DNA of 64,000 nt from Candidatus Aminicenantes bacterium (GCA_963702005.1 OY969696.1:2408172-2472171); one strand, 5' to 3'; shown: positions 21,001 through 33,000, counted from the first letter of the stretch. Numbers: made by a program.

Positions 21001-24000
21001 ACGGGATTGATGGCGCAGGCGACGAGGACGGCCAGACATACGACCAGAATCCAGAAGGACCTTCTCATCCTAATCCCTCCAATAAAGAATCCCCGGGCGG
21101 CGGGCTCCGGGGATTCGAAGATTCAGGCCGGCCTTCGGGCCGTTATTTCGTCATCTTGAAGAAGGAATCCTCGAGGCCCGAGTTGTAGGTGACCTTGGTC
21201 ACGGTCATCTTCATAAACTCCTGGCCGTCCTGGTAGATCGTGATGGAATGAGGGACCGGGACCCCCTCGACCGTCTTGTAATCGGAGAGGGTCGTTTCGG
21301 ACTGGACTTCGACCCCCATTTGATTGAGGGCCTTGGTCCGGGTCTTGTAGGGCAGGTAGGTGTCCTTGTCGAGAAGCAGCGTGTTCTTGTTGCCGTCCTT
21401 GAAGCTCTGCTCGAGGACGATGCAGTCTTTGTCGTCAACCTTCTCCGTCCCCTTGAGCTCATAGGTGATGCCGTATTTCTCGGGATGGAGGAGGGTGTCG
21501 TTGCCGTAGGCCTGCCGCTTGAGCTCCTGAGCCTGGGCGTCGGGGAGCTCCTCGCTGGCGCCCGTCTGCGGATTGACCCACCAGCCCTTCTCGCCGTCAT
21601 AGGCCTGGGTGATGACCATGCCCATGACCTCGATGTCCATCCGCATCATGGTGGGCTCTTTCTGGTACATGGTGATGGATCCGTTCATGCCCATCTGGAT
21701 CATCTCCATGGTCCCGGTCATGGTCGAATCCTTGATGGCGGCCAGGGTTTTCTCGCCGCCGTCGGCCTCGATCATTTTCTTGAGGACGTCCTGGGCCGTC
21801 TGGCTCCAGAGGGAGCCGGTGACCGTCGTCGCCAGGACGAGCAGGGCCAGGATAATAGTTGCGCGCTTTCTCATCTTTGCCTCCTATAGAAGTTCGGATT
21901 GACGCGATGTCGCATTTTAATACGAATATTGTATCTAAAAGTTAAGGATTTTCCAAGGCCGGACCCGGGTTGATTTCGGGCCGGGCTTCGGGTAAAAGGT
22001 AAGTGCCATGGCTTCCGGATATCGGGTTCTCGAACGGCGCCTGGGCCCCTTCGACGCCGCCATGATCGTGAGCGGGGCCATCATCGGATCCGGCATCTTC
22101 ATGAATTCGGCCGAGAGCGCCAAGTTCCTCCAATCCTCCTCCCAGCTCCTGTTCGTTTGGGCCGTGGGCGGCCTCGTCGCGTTCCTGGGCGCCCTCTGCT
22201 TCGCCGAGCTCGGCGCCCTCTACCCGCGGACCGGAGGCCAGTACGTCTATCTTGAGAAGGCCTTCGCTCCCTGGCTCGGGTATTTATTCGGCTGGACCCT
22301 ATTCAGCACGATCCAGACCGGGGCGATCGCCGCCGTCTCCACGACCTGCGCCCGGTTCATCGGCGTCTTCATCCCCATGACCGGCTGGCGGACGAGCCTC
22401 CTGGCCGTGGGCATCATCTGGCTTCTCTCCTTCGTCAACATCGTGGGGATCCGTCCCGGAAGCGTCGTCCAGAATGTCTTCACCGGCCTCAAGATCGCGG
22501 CCTTGGCAGCGCTCATCCTGATCGGCCTGGCCTGGTTCCGTCCTCCGGTTTTTCATCCCGGCCCGCTGTTTCCGGGCGGACTGACCTTTCGGGTCCTGAG
22601 CGCCTTCGGGCTGGCCCTGATGCCGGCCCTTTTCTCCTACGGCGGCTGGCAGAATCTCAACTTCGTAGCGGGCGAGGTCAAAAAGCCCGAGCGGACGCTT
22701 CCCTTCGCCATCGTGTCCGGCGTTTGTCTGGTCATCGCCGTCTATGTCCTGGCCAACGTCGTCTACGTCAAGGCCTTGCCGCTGGGCGCAATCCAGGGCT
22801 CGACCAAGCCCGCCTCCGACGCCGTCCAAGCCATGGTCGGAAGCCGGGGAGCCATGTTCGTGGCCTTGGCCGTCATCGTCTCGACCTTCGGGATCACCAA
22901 CGTCTTCATCATGACCGGTCCGCGCGTCTACTATACGATGGCCAAGGAGCGCGCTTTCCTGCCGTTCGCGGGCCGGCTCGATCCCCGCTTCGGGACGCCC
23001 GCCCTGTCGATCGTCCTCCAGTCCCTCTGGGCGACGATTCTGCTCTTCAGCAACACCTACGGCCAGCTCCTCCAGTATGTGACCTTCGGGGACTGGATCT
23101 TCTTCGGCCTGACTGCGCTCGCCCTGATCGTCCTTCGGCGCAAAATACCCGACGCTCCGCGGCCCTACCGGACCTGGGGATATCCGATCGTCCCGGCCCT
23201 ATTCGGCCTGATCTCGGCCGCCGTCGTCGTCAACGTTTTTATCTCCTCTCCCGGCAAGTCCCTGGCCGGGACCGCCATCATCCTGGGGGGGCTTCCCCTG
23301 TTCTGGTTGGTCCGGAGGCAACGGATAAAGGAGTCCTCCGATGCGCTTTAGTCCCCTCGAATACATCGAGTTCTCCAAACTCCGGAGCCAAGCCAGAATC
23401 GCCCTGGCCCGGAGCGGCGTTCCAGGCGGGAATCGGCCTCAAGCCCCGCTCTTGGGCAGTCTCCGGGCCGTCGAGTCTTCCTCGGCCTCGGCGAGCAGCC
23501 GGTAGGCCTTGAGCTTGTTGTAGAGGGTCGTCCGGGAGACGCCGAGGAGGCCTGCCGTTTTCTTGATGTTGCCCCGGCTCAGCTTGAGGACTTGGCTGAT
23601 ATAGGCCTTCTCGATCTCCTCCAAGGTCTGGGGGTGGTCGCGGTCGATGAGGGGAAGTCCGGCTTCAACGGCCGGGAGATGGCGGAGGTAGCGAGGGAGA
23701 TCATCGCCGTCGATGAATTCCTTCTTGCAGAGAAGGACGGCGCCCTCCATGGCGTTTTCCAGCTCGCGGACGTTGCCGGGCCATTCGTGACGCAGGAGGG
23801 TCTTCTGGACCTGAAGGGAGACGCCCTTGATGTTCTTGTGGAATTCCGCGTTGAAGCGATCCAGGAAGTGACGGATGAGATGGCGGATGTCCTCGCGGCG
23901 TTCCCGGAGGGGCGGCAGGTGGATTTCGATCCGGTTGAGCCGGTGGAAGAGGTCCTCGCGCATGGCCTGGGTTCTGACGGCGTCCCGGAGATTGCGGTTG

Positions 24001-30000: not shown

Positions 30001-33000
30001 CGGAGCCGGCCGCATTCCTCGAACGGGGTCGGCAGGTTCGCCAAGAAAATCCTGGGAACGGATAGAAGACGCATCTCGGCGGTTTTAAGGGCGGTCATGA
30101 CTTCACTTCATTTATACATTCACGGACTCGGCCAATTCAAGGTATAATTCGGCCATGAGAAAAATAAAGATTATTTCTTTCCTTCTACTGGTGTCCGTGC
30201 TCGCCCTCCAGGCGTTGAGCGTCGGAGCGAACCCCGTCCGGGTTAAAACCTACAGCGTCTCCTCGCCCGACAACCGTCTCGTGTTCCGGTTCCTTGTCGC
30301 CGAAAACGTCCAGTACGCGGTCTCCTGGAACGGGATCAAGATCATGGAATCCTCGGAGATAGCGATGGCCCTGGCCGATGGCCGGACGCTCGGCGCGAAC
30401 CCCAAAGTCGCCGACGTCAAGCGCCGTTCGGTCCGGGAAACGATCAAGCCGCCCGTCGCCGAGAAGAGGTCGGTCATCGCGGATAACTTCGAGGAATTGA
30501 CCCTCGTTTTCAAGGGCGATTACAGCCTGACCGCCCGGGTCTATAACGACGGCGCCGCCTACCGCTTTGCGACGCGGCTCCCGGGCGAAATCAAAGTTGT
30601 CTCAGAGGAGGCAGTCTTCCGCTTCGGCGGCAACTATTACGCCTATATGCCCTTCACGCCGAGCCTCCACACATCATTCGAGTCCAATTACAGCCACCTG
30701 CCCCTGGACGAGGTCGGGGCGGGACGCTTCTGCTTCGCGCCCGTCCTGGTCGAGATCCCGGGAGGTCCCAAGGTCGCCGTCACCGATGCCGACCTCGAGG
30801 ATTATCCGGGGATGTTCCTGACCGGAAACGGAGAAGGCCGTCCCGAGCTCAGGGGCTTGTTCGCCCCCTATCCGCTCGAGGAGAAGCTTCGGGAGAAGAG
30901 CGACCGGGAGCTTCTCGTCACGCGAAGCGCCGACGCCATCGCCGTCACCCGGGGGACGCGGACGTTCCCCTGGCGGGTCATCGCCGTCGCCGAGAAGGAC
31001 GGAGGGCTGATCGAGAGCGACCTCATCTACCGGCTGGCCCGGCCCACGGTCCTCGCCGACACGGCGTGGATAAAACCCGGCAAGGTCGCCTGGGACTGGT
31101 GGAACGCCAACGGCCTGTTCGGCGTCGACTTCAAGTCCGGGCTGAACACGGCGACCTACGAGCGCTATATCGACTTCGCCTCAAGCCACGGGATCGAGTA
31201 CGTCATCCTGGACGAGGGATGGTCTTTGCCGGCCGACCTGTTCCAGATCAATCCCGAAATCGACATGGAGACCCTGCTCGGCTACGCCCGGGACCGAAAC
31301 GTCGGGCTCATCCTGTGGTGCGTATGGCTGACCCTGGATCAGCAGCTCGACCGGGCCCTGGACCAATTCGGGAAATGGGGAGTCAAAGGGATCAAGGTCG
31401 ATTTCATGGACCGGGACGATCAGAAGATGGTCCAATTCTATTGGCGGACGGCCGCCGCCGCGGCCGCAAAGCATCTTATCGTGGATTTCCACGGCGCCCA
31501 CAAGCCGACCGGGCTGCGCCGGGCCTACCCCAACGTCCTGACCAAGGAAGGAGTGCTGGGGCTGGAATACAGCAAATGGAGCGACCGGGTCAGCCCCGAG
31601 CACGACCTCCTCATTCCGTTCATAAGGATGTTCGCCGGCCCCATGGATTTCACCCCTGGCGCCATGATCAACGCCCAGAAGCAGGATTTCCGCGCCGTTT
31701 TCGAGACGCCGATGAGCCAGGGCACACGCTGTCATCAGCTGGCCATGTACGTCGTCTATGAAAGCCCGCTCCAGATGCTCTGCGATTCGCCCTCCCGCTA
31801 CGAAAAGGAGAGCGAGGCCATGGAATTCCTCAGCCGGGTGCCGACGACTTGGGACGAGACAAGGGTTCTTGACGCCAAGGTCTCGGACTATGCGGTCGTC
31901 GCCCGGAGAAAGGGGGAGGACTGGTATCTAGGGGCCATGACGGACTGGACGGCCCGCAGCTTCGAGGTCAAGCTCGACTTCCTGGGCCCGGGAAGCTTCG
32001 ACGCCCTTATTTTCAGGGACGGCGCCAACGCCTCGCGTTTTGCCTCCGATTACAAGAAGGAAGCCGCTCGCGTTGCCCAAGGGGATGTCCTGAAGCTCGA
32101 TCTCGCTCCGGGCGGCGGCTGGGCGGCAGTTCTGTCACACAAAAAAGACTGAGGACGTTGACAAGGGGGGGCGTTTCCTGTATCGTAAAGCCTCGCAATA
32201 AAGGCGTGCCCACAATAAGTTGTATGATATTCGGCTTAATACCATATATTGAATATTTTGCTTGACAAACAGCCTTAGATTAGCATAAAATAAGTCCAGC
32301 ACCAAGGCAGAAAAGGGCAAATCTTAAGCTTAGCAAGCTTTAAAACAAGCTAAAATGAAAAGGCATATACGCAGAGCAAGGTACTTCTTTATCGCCTTCC
32401 TGGCGCTTTTTTTCTTCGGGGGGCGGCCGGTCGAATTTGGCAAGGAAAACTCATTTTTTCACGGCTTCCTCATCCCTAACCCGGTCATTAAGATCGGGCT
32501 GGGGGTCAACCTGAGCGATATCGAGATCGCCTCCTCCTCGGGGATGAAGGTCTATGAGGTCAACCGGGATTACCGGTTGGTATCGGACGACGCCCAGGAA
32601 GTCCGCATTAAAGGGCGCCGCGAGAAGCTTTCCGAGAAATTCGTCATCCTGATCGCCCATGCCCAAGAGAGGAAAGAAGCCGAGATCATGGCCCGGGATC
32701 TTAAAGCCAAGCTCGGCAGGAAGGTCTATGTCGAAGAAAATAAAGAGGATGAGCTGGGCGTATCATTTGAGGTCAAGGTCGGCGACTTTCTGACCAGAGG
32801 CGAAGCCCTCGCCTTCATCAAAGAGCTCAACGCGGCCGGGGTGAGCGAAGCCTGGATCCTGACCGAGGAGGTCACGGTCGCGGAGTCCAAGCCGCTCTGG
32901 ATCCTGGTCAACGATCAGCTCCAGAACCTCACCGAGGAAACCGTCCTCTACTTCATTCCCGCCAACCAGGAGAGCTTTCTGAGCTTCAACGGGAGAAGCT

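What the first reader, a model, noticed from the sequence alone, without database searches (positions are those of the whole stretch)
23439..30098. A 1383-aa secreted protein with a C-terminal M14-like peptidase domain, apparently co-transcribed with a sigma-54 activator
Three minus-strand genes are spaced too tightly (51 nt and 3 nt) for internal promoters: a PLP D-cysteine desulfhydrase/ACC-deaminase family enzyme, a very large signal-peptide protein and an NtrC-family activator. The large protein has an N-terminal ~1000 aa with no features I recognise and a C-terminal ~350 aa carrying M14 zinc-carboxypeptidase motifs (HANE, NPDG, LHGSPSHEW). Carrying a sigma-54 enhancer-binding protein in the same operon as a huge extracytoplasmic protein is unusual. 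It suggests a self-contained sensory or remodelling module of unknown function.
Basis: partly seen in the sequence, partly recalled or inferred. Interest (0 to 1): 0.6.

Follow-up and report, generated by a model that had tools for sequence, protein, structure and literature searches.

The report
Giant secreted M14 carboxypeptidase, separate regulator
The 1383-residue protein is a secreted zinc carboxypeptidase on a large scaffold of repeated surface-layer-like domains, a conserved but unstudied protein family; the neighbouring sigma-54 regulator has its own conserved promoter, and nothing found here shows that it controls the peptidase.

Summary
The three minus-strand genes exist as described, in a Candidatus Aminicenantes genome. 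The functional-module reading does not hold.

- **Large protein:** it belongs to a near-fixed-length (~1380 aa) family found in at least 295 species genomes. More distant relatives (28-35% identity) occur in Vicinamibacterales and Gemmatimonadota.
- **PLP gene:** it is upstream only in the closest relatives.
- **Sigma-54 activator:** it follows the peptidase in 50 of 66 species loci, but the "3-nt gap" is an artefact. The TTG is the -35 box of an extended -10 promoter conserved in 47 of 55 loci. The real start is ATG 24854, giving a 48-nt gap.
- **Regulation:** no sigma-54 promoter precedes the peptidase (70 of 71 loci). Where activator targets can be seen, they are a DUF5658 membrane-protein gene.

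Most likely role: an oligomeric extracytoplasmic exopeptidase for peptide scavenging.

The parts
29106..30098 (-). PLP-dependent enzyme of the D-cysteine desulfhydrase / ACC deaminase / CuyA family (330 aa). A lineage-specific neighbour, not a conserved partner.
   Evidence: PALP E 1.6e-44. NCBIfam CuyA 292 bits (cut-off 450) and TIGR01275 252 bits (cut-off 289). Upstream of the large gene only in L003 and L004.
29055..29105 (-). 51-nt gap with a GAGGAG ribosome-binding site 7 nt before the ATG. No recognisable promoter, so co-transcription with the PLP gene is possible in this lineage.
   Evidence: Sequence. No minus-strand promoter-like site here. No TAnAAT within 150 nt upstream here, against 49 of 75 loci elsewhere.
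24903..29054 (-). Gene for the 1383-aa secreted multidomain M14 metallocarboxypeptidase.
28995..29054 (-). Signal peptide (aa 1-20: MKKSGVALVLFMIALQFGFA, then E). No lipobox cysteine.
   Evidence: Read from the translation. The N-terminal pattern is kept in the family consensus.
28155..28982 (-). Module 1 (aa ~25-300): invariant D37/D39/D41 loop, an alpha/beta domain like an S-layer anchor domain, and an alpha+beta subdomain.
27420..28103 (-). Module 2 (aa ~318-545): a duplicate of module 1, with a D330/D334/D338 loop and an S_layer_C-like alpha/beta domain at aa 367-446.
   Evidence: hhalign of module 1 against module 2: probability 98.5%, E 2e-15, 189 columns. Pfam S_layer_C E 0.0018 here and down to 7.4e-10 in relatives. 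Profile hit to 9fsa at aa 371-442.
27102..27413 (-). Third alpha/beta domain (aa ~548-651, four beta-alpha units), where the universally conserved part of the family begins.
   Evidence: Secondary structure of both models. Shorter relatives share only aa ~540-900 plus M14.
26055..27101 (-). Family-specific conserved core (aa ~652-1000). It is beta-rich with two long helices and carries invariant motifs: PxRWLQELYP, SEPDxRxGxDEE, HDEIYFDT and APGN. No fold match among the listed hits.
24906..25976 (-). Complete M14 carboxypeptidase domain (aa ~1027-1383).
25779..25790 (-). HANE codons: zinc ligands H1089 and E1092 (HxxE).
   Evidence: Aligned to HGNE of carboxypeptidase N and D. H in 80 of 82 and E in 82 of 82 relatives.
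25479..25481 (-). H1192 (in NLHG), the proposed third zinc ligand.
   Evidence: 82 of 82 conserved. Assigned by motif position, not by superposition.
25110..25112 (-). E1315 (in TPEVMDETA), the proposed catalytic general base equivalent to Glu270 of carboxypeptidase A.
   Evidence: 81 of 82 conserved, at the end of strand aa 1310-1316 of the model. An inference.
24871..24899 (-). Promoter of the activator gene: TTGTCA, 17 nt (ending in TGC), TAAGAT. A sigma-70 type with an extended -10.
   Evidence: Scan hit. The same architecture is seen in most orthologous gaps. TGnTAAnAT in 47 of 55 loci against a background of 0.048 per kb, about 1 expected.
23439..24854 (-). NtrC-family sigma-54 activator, 471 aa from ATG 24854. 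It has a degenerate receiver, an AAA+ domain with GAFTGA, and a Fis-type HTH.
   Evidence: The start is inferred from L003 and the promoter position.

Best explanation
The window holds three adjacent but functionally separable genes of a Candidatus Aminicenantes bacterium.

**The large gene.** It encodes a Sec-exported zinc metallocarboxypeptidase of the M14 clan. Its catalytic domain (aa ~1027-1383) sits at the end of a ~1000-aa non-catalytic scaffold with three parts:
- two tandem homologous modules, each an Asp-rich loop plus an alpha/beta domain related to the anchoring and dimerisation domain of Methanococcus S-layer protein and to domains of BcsB;
- a third alpha/beta domain;
- a family-specific beta-rich core.

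**Shown:** the domain layout, the duplication, the complete M14 fold, and near-total conservation of the proposed metal and catalytic residues. The protein is therefore very probably an active enzyme, not a decayed domain.

**Inferred:** the scaffold makes the enzyme oligomeric and/or holds it at the cell envelope. There it removes C-terminal residues from peptides to feed amino-acid uptake.

**The activator.** It is a separate transcription unit with its own conserved sigma-70-type promoter in the 48-nt gap. In related genomes its palindromic binding sites (TGTTCA-N5-TGAACA) lie at its own promoter and upstream of sigma-54 promoters of another gene (a DUF5658 membrane protein). They never lie upstream of the peptidase. 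I read its adjacency to the peptidase as inherited gene order within a strongly syntenic region, not as shared regulation.

**The PLP gene.** It is a recent neighbour. In this lineage alone it may share a transcript with the peptidase.
For: **Family.** More than 120 full-length relatives at 52-84% identity, all from Aminicenantes. 295 species genomes encode a relative. There are 774 clusters at 50% identity, and distant ones keep the core plus M14.

**Structure.**
- Models have pLDDT 88.6 with pTM 0.89, and pLDDT 85.9.
- 9fsa is the dimerising anchor domain of the M. voltae S-layer protein (PMC11410804).
- Module 1 is homologous to module 2.
- S_layer_C matches 12 of 29 distant members, best E 7.4e-10.

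**Active site.** R1087, N1091, E1092, N1128, H1148, H1192, H1197 and R1266 are conserved in 82 of 82; H1089 in 80; E1315, D1318 and E1319 in 81.

**Regulation.**
- The activator's promoter is conserved in 47 of 55 loci.
- No sigma-54 site lies upstream of the peptidase in 70 of 71 loci.
- 18 near-consensus sigma-54 promoters were found in 1.43 Mb. At least 12 lie just after the activator gene, and 10 of those loci have a DUF5658 gene next.
- 30 palindromes were found in 1.47 Mb, nearly all at those places or at the activator's own promoter.
- The peptidase usually has its own -10-like box: TAnAAT in 49 of 75 loci against 7.8 expected.

**Role.** Neighbours of six distant relatives include SSF transporters (3 of 6), TonB-dependent receptors (2 of 6), a 5-oxoprolinase subunit, amidohydrolases and gamma-glutamyl transpeptidase. 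An amino-acid permease lies next to the pair in the window and in 7 related loci. Aminicenantes are reported to specialise in protein degradation (PMC6469976).
Against: - No activity, localisation or transcript data exist for any member of the family.
- The catalytic Glu and the third zinc ligand were assigned from motifs and conservation, not from a superposition.
- The canonical Arg145-like carboxylate clamp (R1151) is kept in only 44 of 82 relatives, with Tyr in the rest. Substrate binding may therefore be atypical.
- Within Aminicenantes the conserved neighbours are envelope genes (SpoIID, a LolA-like protein, M48, lpxA, lpxI), which fits a cell-wall role as well as a nutritional one.
- A Firmicute relative (P0364) lacks a signal peptide. 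The scaffold therefore cannot be only a surface anchor.
- Adjacency to the activator in 76% of species, and a peptidase-receptor-kinase-activator row in one distant relative (L088), leave room for a functional link that these promoter scans would miss.
- Read-through from the peptidase gene into the activator gene is not excluded: no terminator-like hairpin lies in the gap.
Confidence: 0.6

Rival explanations
1. One reading: the PLP enzyme, the giant extracytoplasmic protein and the sigma-54 activator form one operon. This would be a self-contained sensory or remodelling module in which the activator senses a signal tied to the large protein and controls its expression.
For: The peptidase and activator are adjacent on the same strand in 50 of 66 species loci. 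No terminator-like site lies between them in the window. One distant relative has a kinase and activator two genes downstream (L088). In this lineage the PLP-peptidase gap lacks a recognisable promoter.
Against: - The PLP gene is upstream only in L003 and L004.
- The activator has its own conserved promoter, and the 3-nt gap is an ORF-calling artefact.
- No sigma-54 promoter or activator palindrome lies upstream of the peptidase in any lineage, and none is in the window.
- The activator is missing from this position in 16 of 66 species, including a complete genome, while the peptidase stays.
- It is absent next to 5 of 6 distant homologues.
Confidence: 0.08
2. A cell-envelope remodelling enzyme: a peptidoglycan or envelope-protein carboxypeptidase, comparable to Csd4/Pgp1 or MpaA. 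It would be held at the wall by S-layer-anchor-like or CWB2-like domains and act with the neighbouring envelope genes.
Against: - Outside Aminicenantes the neighbours are transporters and amino-acid catabolic enzymes, not wall genes.
- One relative is cytoplasmic.
- The conserved gene order includes genes with no obvious common function, so it may be plain synteny.
Confidence: 0.2
3. A structural surface-lattice (S-layer-type) protein of Aminicenantes in which the M14 domain is a non-catalytic binding or assembly module.
For: Signal peptide, large size, duplicated S-layer-like domains. The BcsB-like domains are known from a protein that assembles into rings (title of entry 6yg8).
Against: All proposed catalytic and metal residues are conserved in 80-82 of 82 sequences across phyla, which is not expected of a dead domain. 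Sequence conservation is high (52-57% identity over 1383 aa across the class, with near-constant length), whereas, from general knowledge, S-layer proteins usually diverge fast. A cytoplasmic relative exists.
Confidence: 0.07

Closest known systems
M14 metallocarboxypeptidases (carboxypeptidases A, B, D, N, T; bacterial cytosolic-carboxypeptidase-like proteins such as PDB 3k2k, 4b6z, 4a37)
   Different: The Pfam model matches only positions 17-107 of 286. The domain follows about 1000 aa of scaffold. The Arg145-like residue is not conserved across the family. Extra invariant residues (H1148, H1197, R1266, the DETA motif) have no counterpart that I could assign.
Methanococcus voltae S-layer protein, anchoring and dimerisation domain (PDB 9fsa; Pfam PF05124 S_layer_C)
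   Different: Here the domain is bacterial, duplicated and fused to an enzyme. The window protein scores below the Pfam cut-off (18.4 against 23.9 bits). Nothing shows lattice formation.
BcsB, periplasmic subunit of bacterial cellulose synthase (PDB 6yg8)
   Different: No cellulose synthase genes are in the annotated neighbourhood, and the protein has no hydrophobic C-terminus (its C-terminus is basic). The similarity is at domain level only.
Clostridioides difficile Cwp proteins (cell-wall-binding repeats plus an enzyme domain, e.g. Cwp6)
   Different: An analogy only. The domain families, cell-envelope type and enzyme class all differ.
NtrC1 of Aquifex aeolicus and other NtrC-family response-regulator activators
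   Same: Receiver, AAA+ (with GAFTGA) and Fis-type HTH architecture. E 1e-78 to PDB 4l4u.
   Different: The receiver keeps the phospho-acceptor Asp but has Gly-Gly instead of the acidic pair and Arg instead of Lys. No histidine kinase was found among the neighbouring genes scanned against Pfam, and no sigma-54 promoter in the 64-kb window.

Membership tests
Peptidase family M14 (Pfam PF00246) | Profile match above the curated threshold | tested here: met
   49.2 bits against a cut-off of 21.6, E 7.6e-13, but only profile positions 17-107 of 286. All 29 distant relatives also match.
Peptidase family M14 (Pfam PF00246) | Complete carboxypeptidase alpha/beta fold | tested here: met
Peptidase family M14 (Pfam PF00246) | Zinc ligands His-x-x-Glu plus a distal His | tested here: met
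   H1089 and E1092 align to HGNE of carboxypeptidases N and D. H1192 sits in NLHG. Conserved in 80, 82 and 82 of 82. H1192 was assigned by motif, not by superposition.
Peptidase family M14 (Pfam PF00246) | Catalytic general-base Glu (Glu270 of carboxypeptidase A) | tested here: inconclusive
   The candidate E1315 is conserved in 81 of 82 and lies at the end of a core strand. Equivalence was not verified in three dimensions.
Peptidase family M14 (Pfam PF00246) | C-terminal carboxylate clamp (Asn144/Arg145/Tyr248 equivalents) | tested here: inconclusive
   R1151 aligns with the Arg of carboxypeptidase N. It is Arg in only 44 of 82 relatives and Tyr in 38.
Peptidase family M14 (Pfam PF00246) | Metal-dependent carboxypeptidase activity | not testable with these tools
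   Needs biochemistry.
Bacterial enhancer-binding protein (NtrC family) | Sigma-54 interaction AAA+ domain with a GAFTGA loop, plus a C-terminal HTH | tested here: met
   PF00158 E 4.3e-64, AAA_lid_14 and HTH_8. GAFTGA is present.
Bacterial enhancer-binding protein (NtrC family) | Canonical phospho-receiver (acidic pair, Asp, Thr/Ser, Lys) | tested here: not met
   Response_reg scores 19.6 bits against a cut-off of 30.2. Asp is present. The acidic pair is Gly-Gly, the Thr position is Gly, and Lys is Arg.
Bacterial enhancer-binding protein (NtrC family) | A cognate sigma-54 promoter with upstream binding sites near the gene | tested here: not met
   In the window there is no TGGCAC-N5-TTGCW site with both GG and GC intact outside coding sequence, and no TGTTCA-N5-TGAACA within 2 mismatches. 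The feature is met in 10 related loci.
Three-gene operon (PLP enzyme, peptidase, activator) | Genes conserved together across related genomes | tested here: not met
   PLP gene upstream in 2 loci only. Activator downstream in 50 of 66 species loci. Neither partner is next to 5 of 6 distant homologues.
Three-gene operon (PLP enzyme, peptidase, activator) | No internal promoters | tested here: not met
   A conserved TTGTCA-N17-TAAGAT promoter lies in the peptidase-activator gap. This is comparative evidence, not a mapped transcript start.
D-cysteine desulfhydrase / ACC deaminase family (TIGR01275) | Score above the curated cut-off of a named equivalog or subfamily | tested here: not met
   Best scores are CuyA 292 (cut-off 450) and TIGR01275 252 (cut-off 289.4). 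Fold-type II PLP membership (PALP) is met.
S-layer protein (Pfam PF05124 domain) | S_layer_C / anchor domain present | tested here: met
S-layer protein (Pfam PF05124 domain) | Forms the cell's surface lattice | not testable with these tools
   Needs microscopy or proteomics.
BcsB (cellulose synthase subunit B) | Encoded with bcsA and carries a C-terminal membrane anchor | tested here: not met
   No cellulose synthase gene among the annotated neighbours. The C-terminus is basic, not hydrophobic.

The most novel reading that the evidence does not exclude
The ~1400-aa family would be a new class of self-assembling extracytoplasmic exopeptidase. Its duplicated modules, like BcsB and an S-layer anchor domain, would build a ring or lattice that places many M14 active sites at the envelope of Acidobacteriota and Gemmatimonadota: in effect an enzymatic surface layer or a compartmentalised carboxypeptidase. 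The invariant acidic core (SEPD...DEE...HDEIYFDT) would be a second, unrecognised functional site. The neighbouring activator might then respond to the peptidase's products.
Probability: 0.12. Interest if true: 0.7.

Novelty: new variant of a known kind. Interest (0 to 1): 0.4.

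Why it matters
Aminicenantes and related Acidobacteriota are abundant, uncultured peptide degraders in sediments and soils. This protein is conserved in the Aminicenantes genomes searched (at least 295 species genomes) and in related groups, yet it is annotated only as "M14 family metallopeptidase" or "hypothetical". The anatomy given here (signal peptide, duplicated anchor-like modules, an unassigned conserved core, an intact catalytic domain) offers a concrete target for expression and assay.

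It also corrects a tempting operon inference. Short gaps taken from longest-ORF calls can hide a promoter: here the supposed start codon is the -35 box.

The comparative work also yields a candidate binding site (TGTTCA-N5-TGAACA) and target genes for an orphan sigma-54 activator family.

Tried and rejected
- **Sigma-54 consensus scan of the window:** 7 hits against 12.8 expected by chance, none credible. The nearest, TGGCACTTACCTTTTA at 21993-22008 (-) upstream of the LolA-like gene, lacks the -12 GC.
- **First upstream scan:** it used a wrong index for the -12 GC. It was discarded and redone.
- **Activator palindrome with a 6-nt spacer:** noise only. The correct spacing is 5 nt.
- **The 973-aa M14 protein near the peptidase in the complete genome CP070825:** considered as a paralogue and rejected, as there is no similarity beyond the M14 motif.
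- **Profile search of PDB sequences:** only M14 and the S-layer domain.
- **NCBIfam:** no family for the large protein.
- **Cluster names of distant relatives:** all "hypothetical".
- **Rfam and tRNA scans of the window:** nothing.
- **Literature searches:** nothing for this family or for DUF5658.

Full report
**1. What is in the window**

Three minus-strand ORFs lie at 29106..30098 (330 aa), 24903..29054 (1383 aa) and 23439..24899 (486 aa from a TTG).

- Pfam and NCBIfam confirm a fold-type II PLP enzyme of the D-cysteine desulfhydrase / ACC deaminase / CuyA group. All named models score below their cut-offs.
- They also confirm a protein whose only significant Pfam hit is Peptidase_M14 at aa 1044-1136, and an NtrC-family sigma-54 activator.
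- Homologues place the window in Candidatus Aminicenantes, phylum Acidobacteriota.

**2. The large protein belongs to a conserved, unstudied family**

- More than 120 full-length relatives of 1375-1385 aa share 52-84% identity.
- At least 295 species-representative genomes encode a relative.
- An exhaustive search with aa 22-1040 found 774 clusters at 50% identity.
- Full-length relatives at 28-35% identity occur in Vicinamibacterales and Gemmatimonadota.
- Shorter relatives (1030-1250 aa) share only aa ~540-900 plus the M14 domain.
- One relative from a cultured Firmicute, Acidaminobacter sp. JC074, lacks a signal peptide.
- Sources name these proteins only "M14 family metallopeptidase", "zinc carboxypeptidase" or "hypothetical". 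I found no paper on the family.

**3. Anatomy**

Two AlphaFold2 models were built on alignments of 79-82 sequences. The model of aa 540-1383 has pLDDT 88.6 and pTM 0.89. The model of aa 22-700 has pLDDT 85.9.

*N-terminal 680 aa.* The best matches are:

Sequence methods agree. The family profile hits 9fsa at aa 371-442. Pfam S_layer_C matches 12 of 29 distant relatives, down to E 7.4e-10.

*Duplication.* Profile-profile comparison shows that aa 25-300 and aa 318-545 are homologous (probability 98.5%, E 2e-15). Each copy begins with an invariant Asp-rich loop: D37/D39/D41 and D330/D334/D338. From general knowledge of DxDxDG motifs, these loops look like calcium sites.

*Middle region.* A third alpha/beta domain (aa ~548-651) and a beta-rich core (aa ~652-1000) follow. 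The core carries invariant motifs: PxRWLQELYP, SEPDxRxGxDEE, HDEIYFDT and APGN. I could not assign a fold to it, because the M14 domain filled the listed fold-search hits.

**4. Is the peptidase domain live?**

Conservation was counted across 82 sequences spanning three phylum-level groups:

| Residues | Conserved in |
|---|---|
| R1087, N1091, E1092, N1128, H1148, H1192, H1197, R1266 | 82 of 82 |
| E1315, D1318, E1319 | 81 of 82 |
| H1089 | 80 of 82 |
| R1151 | 44 of 82 (Tyr in 38) |

- HANE aligns with HGNE of carboxypeptidases N and D, and NPDG with NPDG.
- I assign H1089, E1092 and H1192 as zinc ligands, and E1315 as the general base.
- The last two rest on motif position and conservation, not on a superposition.
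- R1151, the Arg145-like residue, is not universal, so recognition of the substrate C-terminus may differ from the textbook enzymes.

**5. Gene neighbourhood**

I compared 83 loci by tblastn.

- The PLP gene is upstream only in the two closest relatives (L003, L004).
- Among the GTDB species loci with at least 1.6 kb downstream, the activator follows the peptidase on the same strand in 50 of 66. One of these, L042, was only seen as an overlapping hit in my parse.
- The activator is absent from that position in 16 loci, including the complete genome CP070825.
- The wider order SpoIID, peptidase, activator, LolA-like, M48, GFO, LpxI, LpxA is also conserved. The adjacency therefore sits inside a generally syntenic region.
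- Of six distant homologues, five have no activator nearby. One (L088) has the order peptidase, TonB-dependent receptor, kinase, activator.
- Recurrent neighbours of the distant homologues are SSF transporters, TonB-dependent receptors, a 5-oxoprolinase subunit, DUF969/DUF979, amidohydrolases, gamma-glutamyl transpeptidase and a penicillin-amidase fusion.

**6. Transcription signals**

*The activator's own promoter.*
- The 3-nt gap is an artefact of taking the longest ORF. The TTG at 24899 begins TTGTCA. Seventeen bases later, ending in TG-C, comes TAAGAT (24876-24871). The first ATG is at 24854.
- The same -35 / extended -10 arrangement appears in the orthologous gap of nearly every locus, although the surrounding sequence is not conserved.
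- The pattern TGnTAAnAT occurs upstream of the activator in 47 of 55 loci, against a background of 0.048 per kb, about one expected.
- In several loci the -10 box overlaps the peptidase stop codon, so the promoter persists even where the gap is minimal.

*The peptidase's own promoter.* TAnAAT occurs within 150 nt upstream in 49 of 75 loci against 7.8 expected. An extended form occurs in 23 against 0.6 expected. The window lacks it. Co-transcription with the PLP gene is therefore plausible in this lineage only.

**7. What the activator controls**

- With GG and GC required and at most one other mismatch to TGGCAC-N5-TTGCW, 18 sites occur in 1.43 Mb of related loci.
- At least 12 of these lie on the same strand just after the activator gene. 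In 10 loci they precede a 203-226-aa DUF5658 membrane protein.
- Upstream of these promoters are pairs of the palindrome TGTTCA-N5-TGAACA, spaced about 80 bp apart.
- The 30 palindromes with at most one mismatch in 1.47 Mb lie almost entirely in three kinds of place:
  - upstream of the DUF5658 promoters;
  - over the activator's own promoter, which suggests autoregulation (seven loci);
  - about 30 nt beyond the start of the convergent DUF1638-PAS-GAF-GGDEF gene, that is, upstream of it (three loci).
- None lies upstream of the peptidase gene.
- With at most two mismatches, only 1 of 71 loci has a sigma-54-like site within 400 nt upstream of the peptidase.
- The window has neither a credible sigma-54 promoter nor the palindrome. 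It also lacks the DUF5658 and GGDEF genes; an amino-acid permease takes that place.
- The window's activator keeps GAFTGA and the phospho-acceptor Asp. It has lost the acidic pair (Gly-Gly) and the Lys (Arg) that most orthologues retain. No kinase gene was found among the neighbouring genes scanned against Pfam.

**8. Interpretation**

*Best supported.* The protein is an exported, catalytically competent M14 carboxypeptidase on a large, duplicated scaffold. The scaffold domains are known elsewhere for anchoring and oligomerisation.

*Probable role.* I favour peptide scavenging, for three reasons:
- the transporter and amino-acid catabolism neighbours in other phyla;
- the permease next door;
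- the reported specialisation of Aminicenantes in protein degradation (PMC6469976).

A cell-envelope substrate remains a serious rival because of the envelope genes around it in Aminicenantes.

*The activator.* It is independently transcribed, and its visible targets are other genes. A functional link to the peptidase is neither shown nor excluded.

**9. Verdict**

The operon and module interpretation is largely not supported. The protein is a new architectural variant of a known enzyme family. It is moderately interesting for its size, conservation, unassigned core and possible assembly.

Noticed in passing
L054 7462-8437; L072 15688-16546; also L036, L053, L057, L058, L065, L079, L081, L083, and L010 (opposite strand): In a subclade of Aminicenantes, a consensus sigma-54 promoter (TGGCAY-N5-TTGCW) preceded by two TGTTCA-N5-TGAACA palindromes about 80 bp apart lies just after the activator gene. 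It sits in front of a 203-226-aa DUF5658 membrane protein. This is a likely activator regulon member that is absent from the window.
   Followed up: yes
L019, about 17-2467 nt after the activator stop (minus strand); similar in roughly 25 loci; palindrome at +2496 in L047, L060, L069: An ~816-aa DUF1638-PAS-GAF-GGDEF diguanylate cyclase gene converges on the activator gene in many species. In three of them the activator-type palindrome lies about 30 nt beyond that gene's start, that is, upstream of it.
   Followed up: partly
L001 12187, L013 6039, L044 7918, L054 5913, L057 5956, L066 6612, L071 14187: The same palindrome overlaps the activator's own promoter in the peptidase-activator gap, which suggests autoregulation. 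The window's gap has only a degenerate version (TGCTAAGATACCGGCAG).
   Followed up: partly
L088 6001-16191: One distant homologue (about 39% identity to the window protein over aa 540-1383) is followed by a TonB-dependent receptor, a PAS-GAF histidine kinase and a receiver-type sigma-54 activator. It is the only case outside Aminicenantes where an activator is nearby.
   Followed up: no
window 17076-21874: A conserved envelope cluster downstream: LpxA (17076-17900), GFO/MocA oxidoreductase (18716-19630), M48 peptidase (19635-21068) and a LolA-like / TP_0789-like protein (21143-21874). It is syntenic with the peptidase across the class.
   Followed up: partly
window 21993-22008 (-): TGGCACTTACCTTTTA lies about 120 nt upstream of the LolA-like gene. 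It has a good -24 half of a sigma-54 promoter, but the -12 GC is missing. It is probably chance.
   Followed up: partly
window 30155-34571: A GH97 glycoside hydrolase (30155-32152) lies divergent from the PLP gene, followed by a 738-aa SPOR-SpoIID protein (32355-34571). In most relatives SpoIID is the direct divergent neighbour of the peptidase. The GH97 and PLP genes therefore look like insertions in this lineage.
   Followed up: partly
window 52001-56000: GC content rises to 0.68-0.71, against about 0.62-0.64 elsewhere in the window.
   Followed up: no
L086 5501-12136 (Acidaminobacter sp. JC074): The cytoplasmic 1168-aa relative sits between a sodium:solute symporter and DUF969/DUF979 membrane proteins, next to lysine aminomutase genes. 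This is an amino-acid fermentation context in a cultured organism, which would be the easiest place to test the family's function.
   Followed up: no
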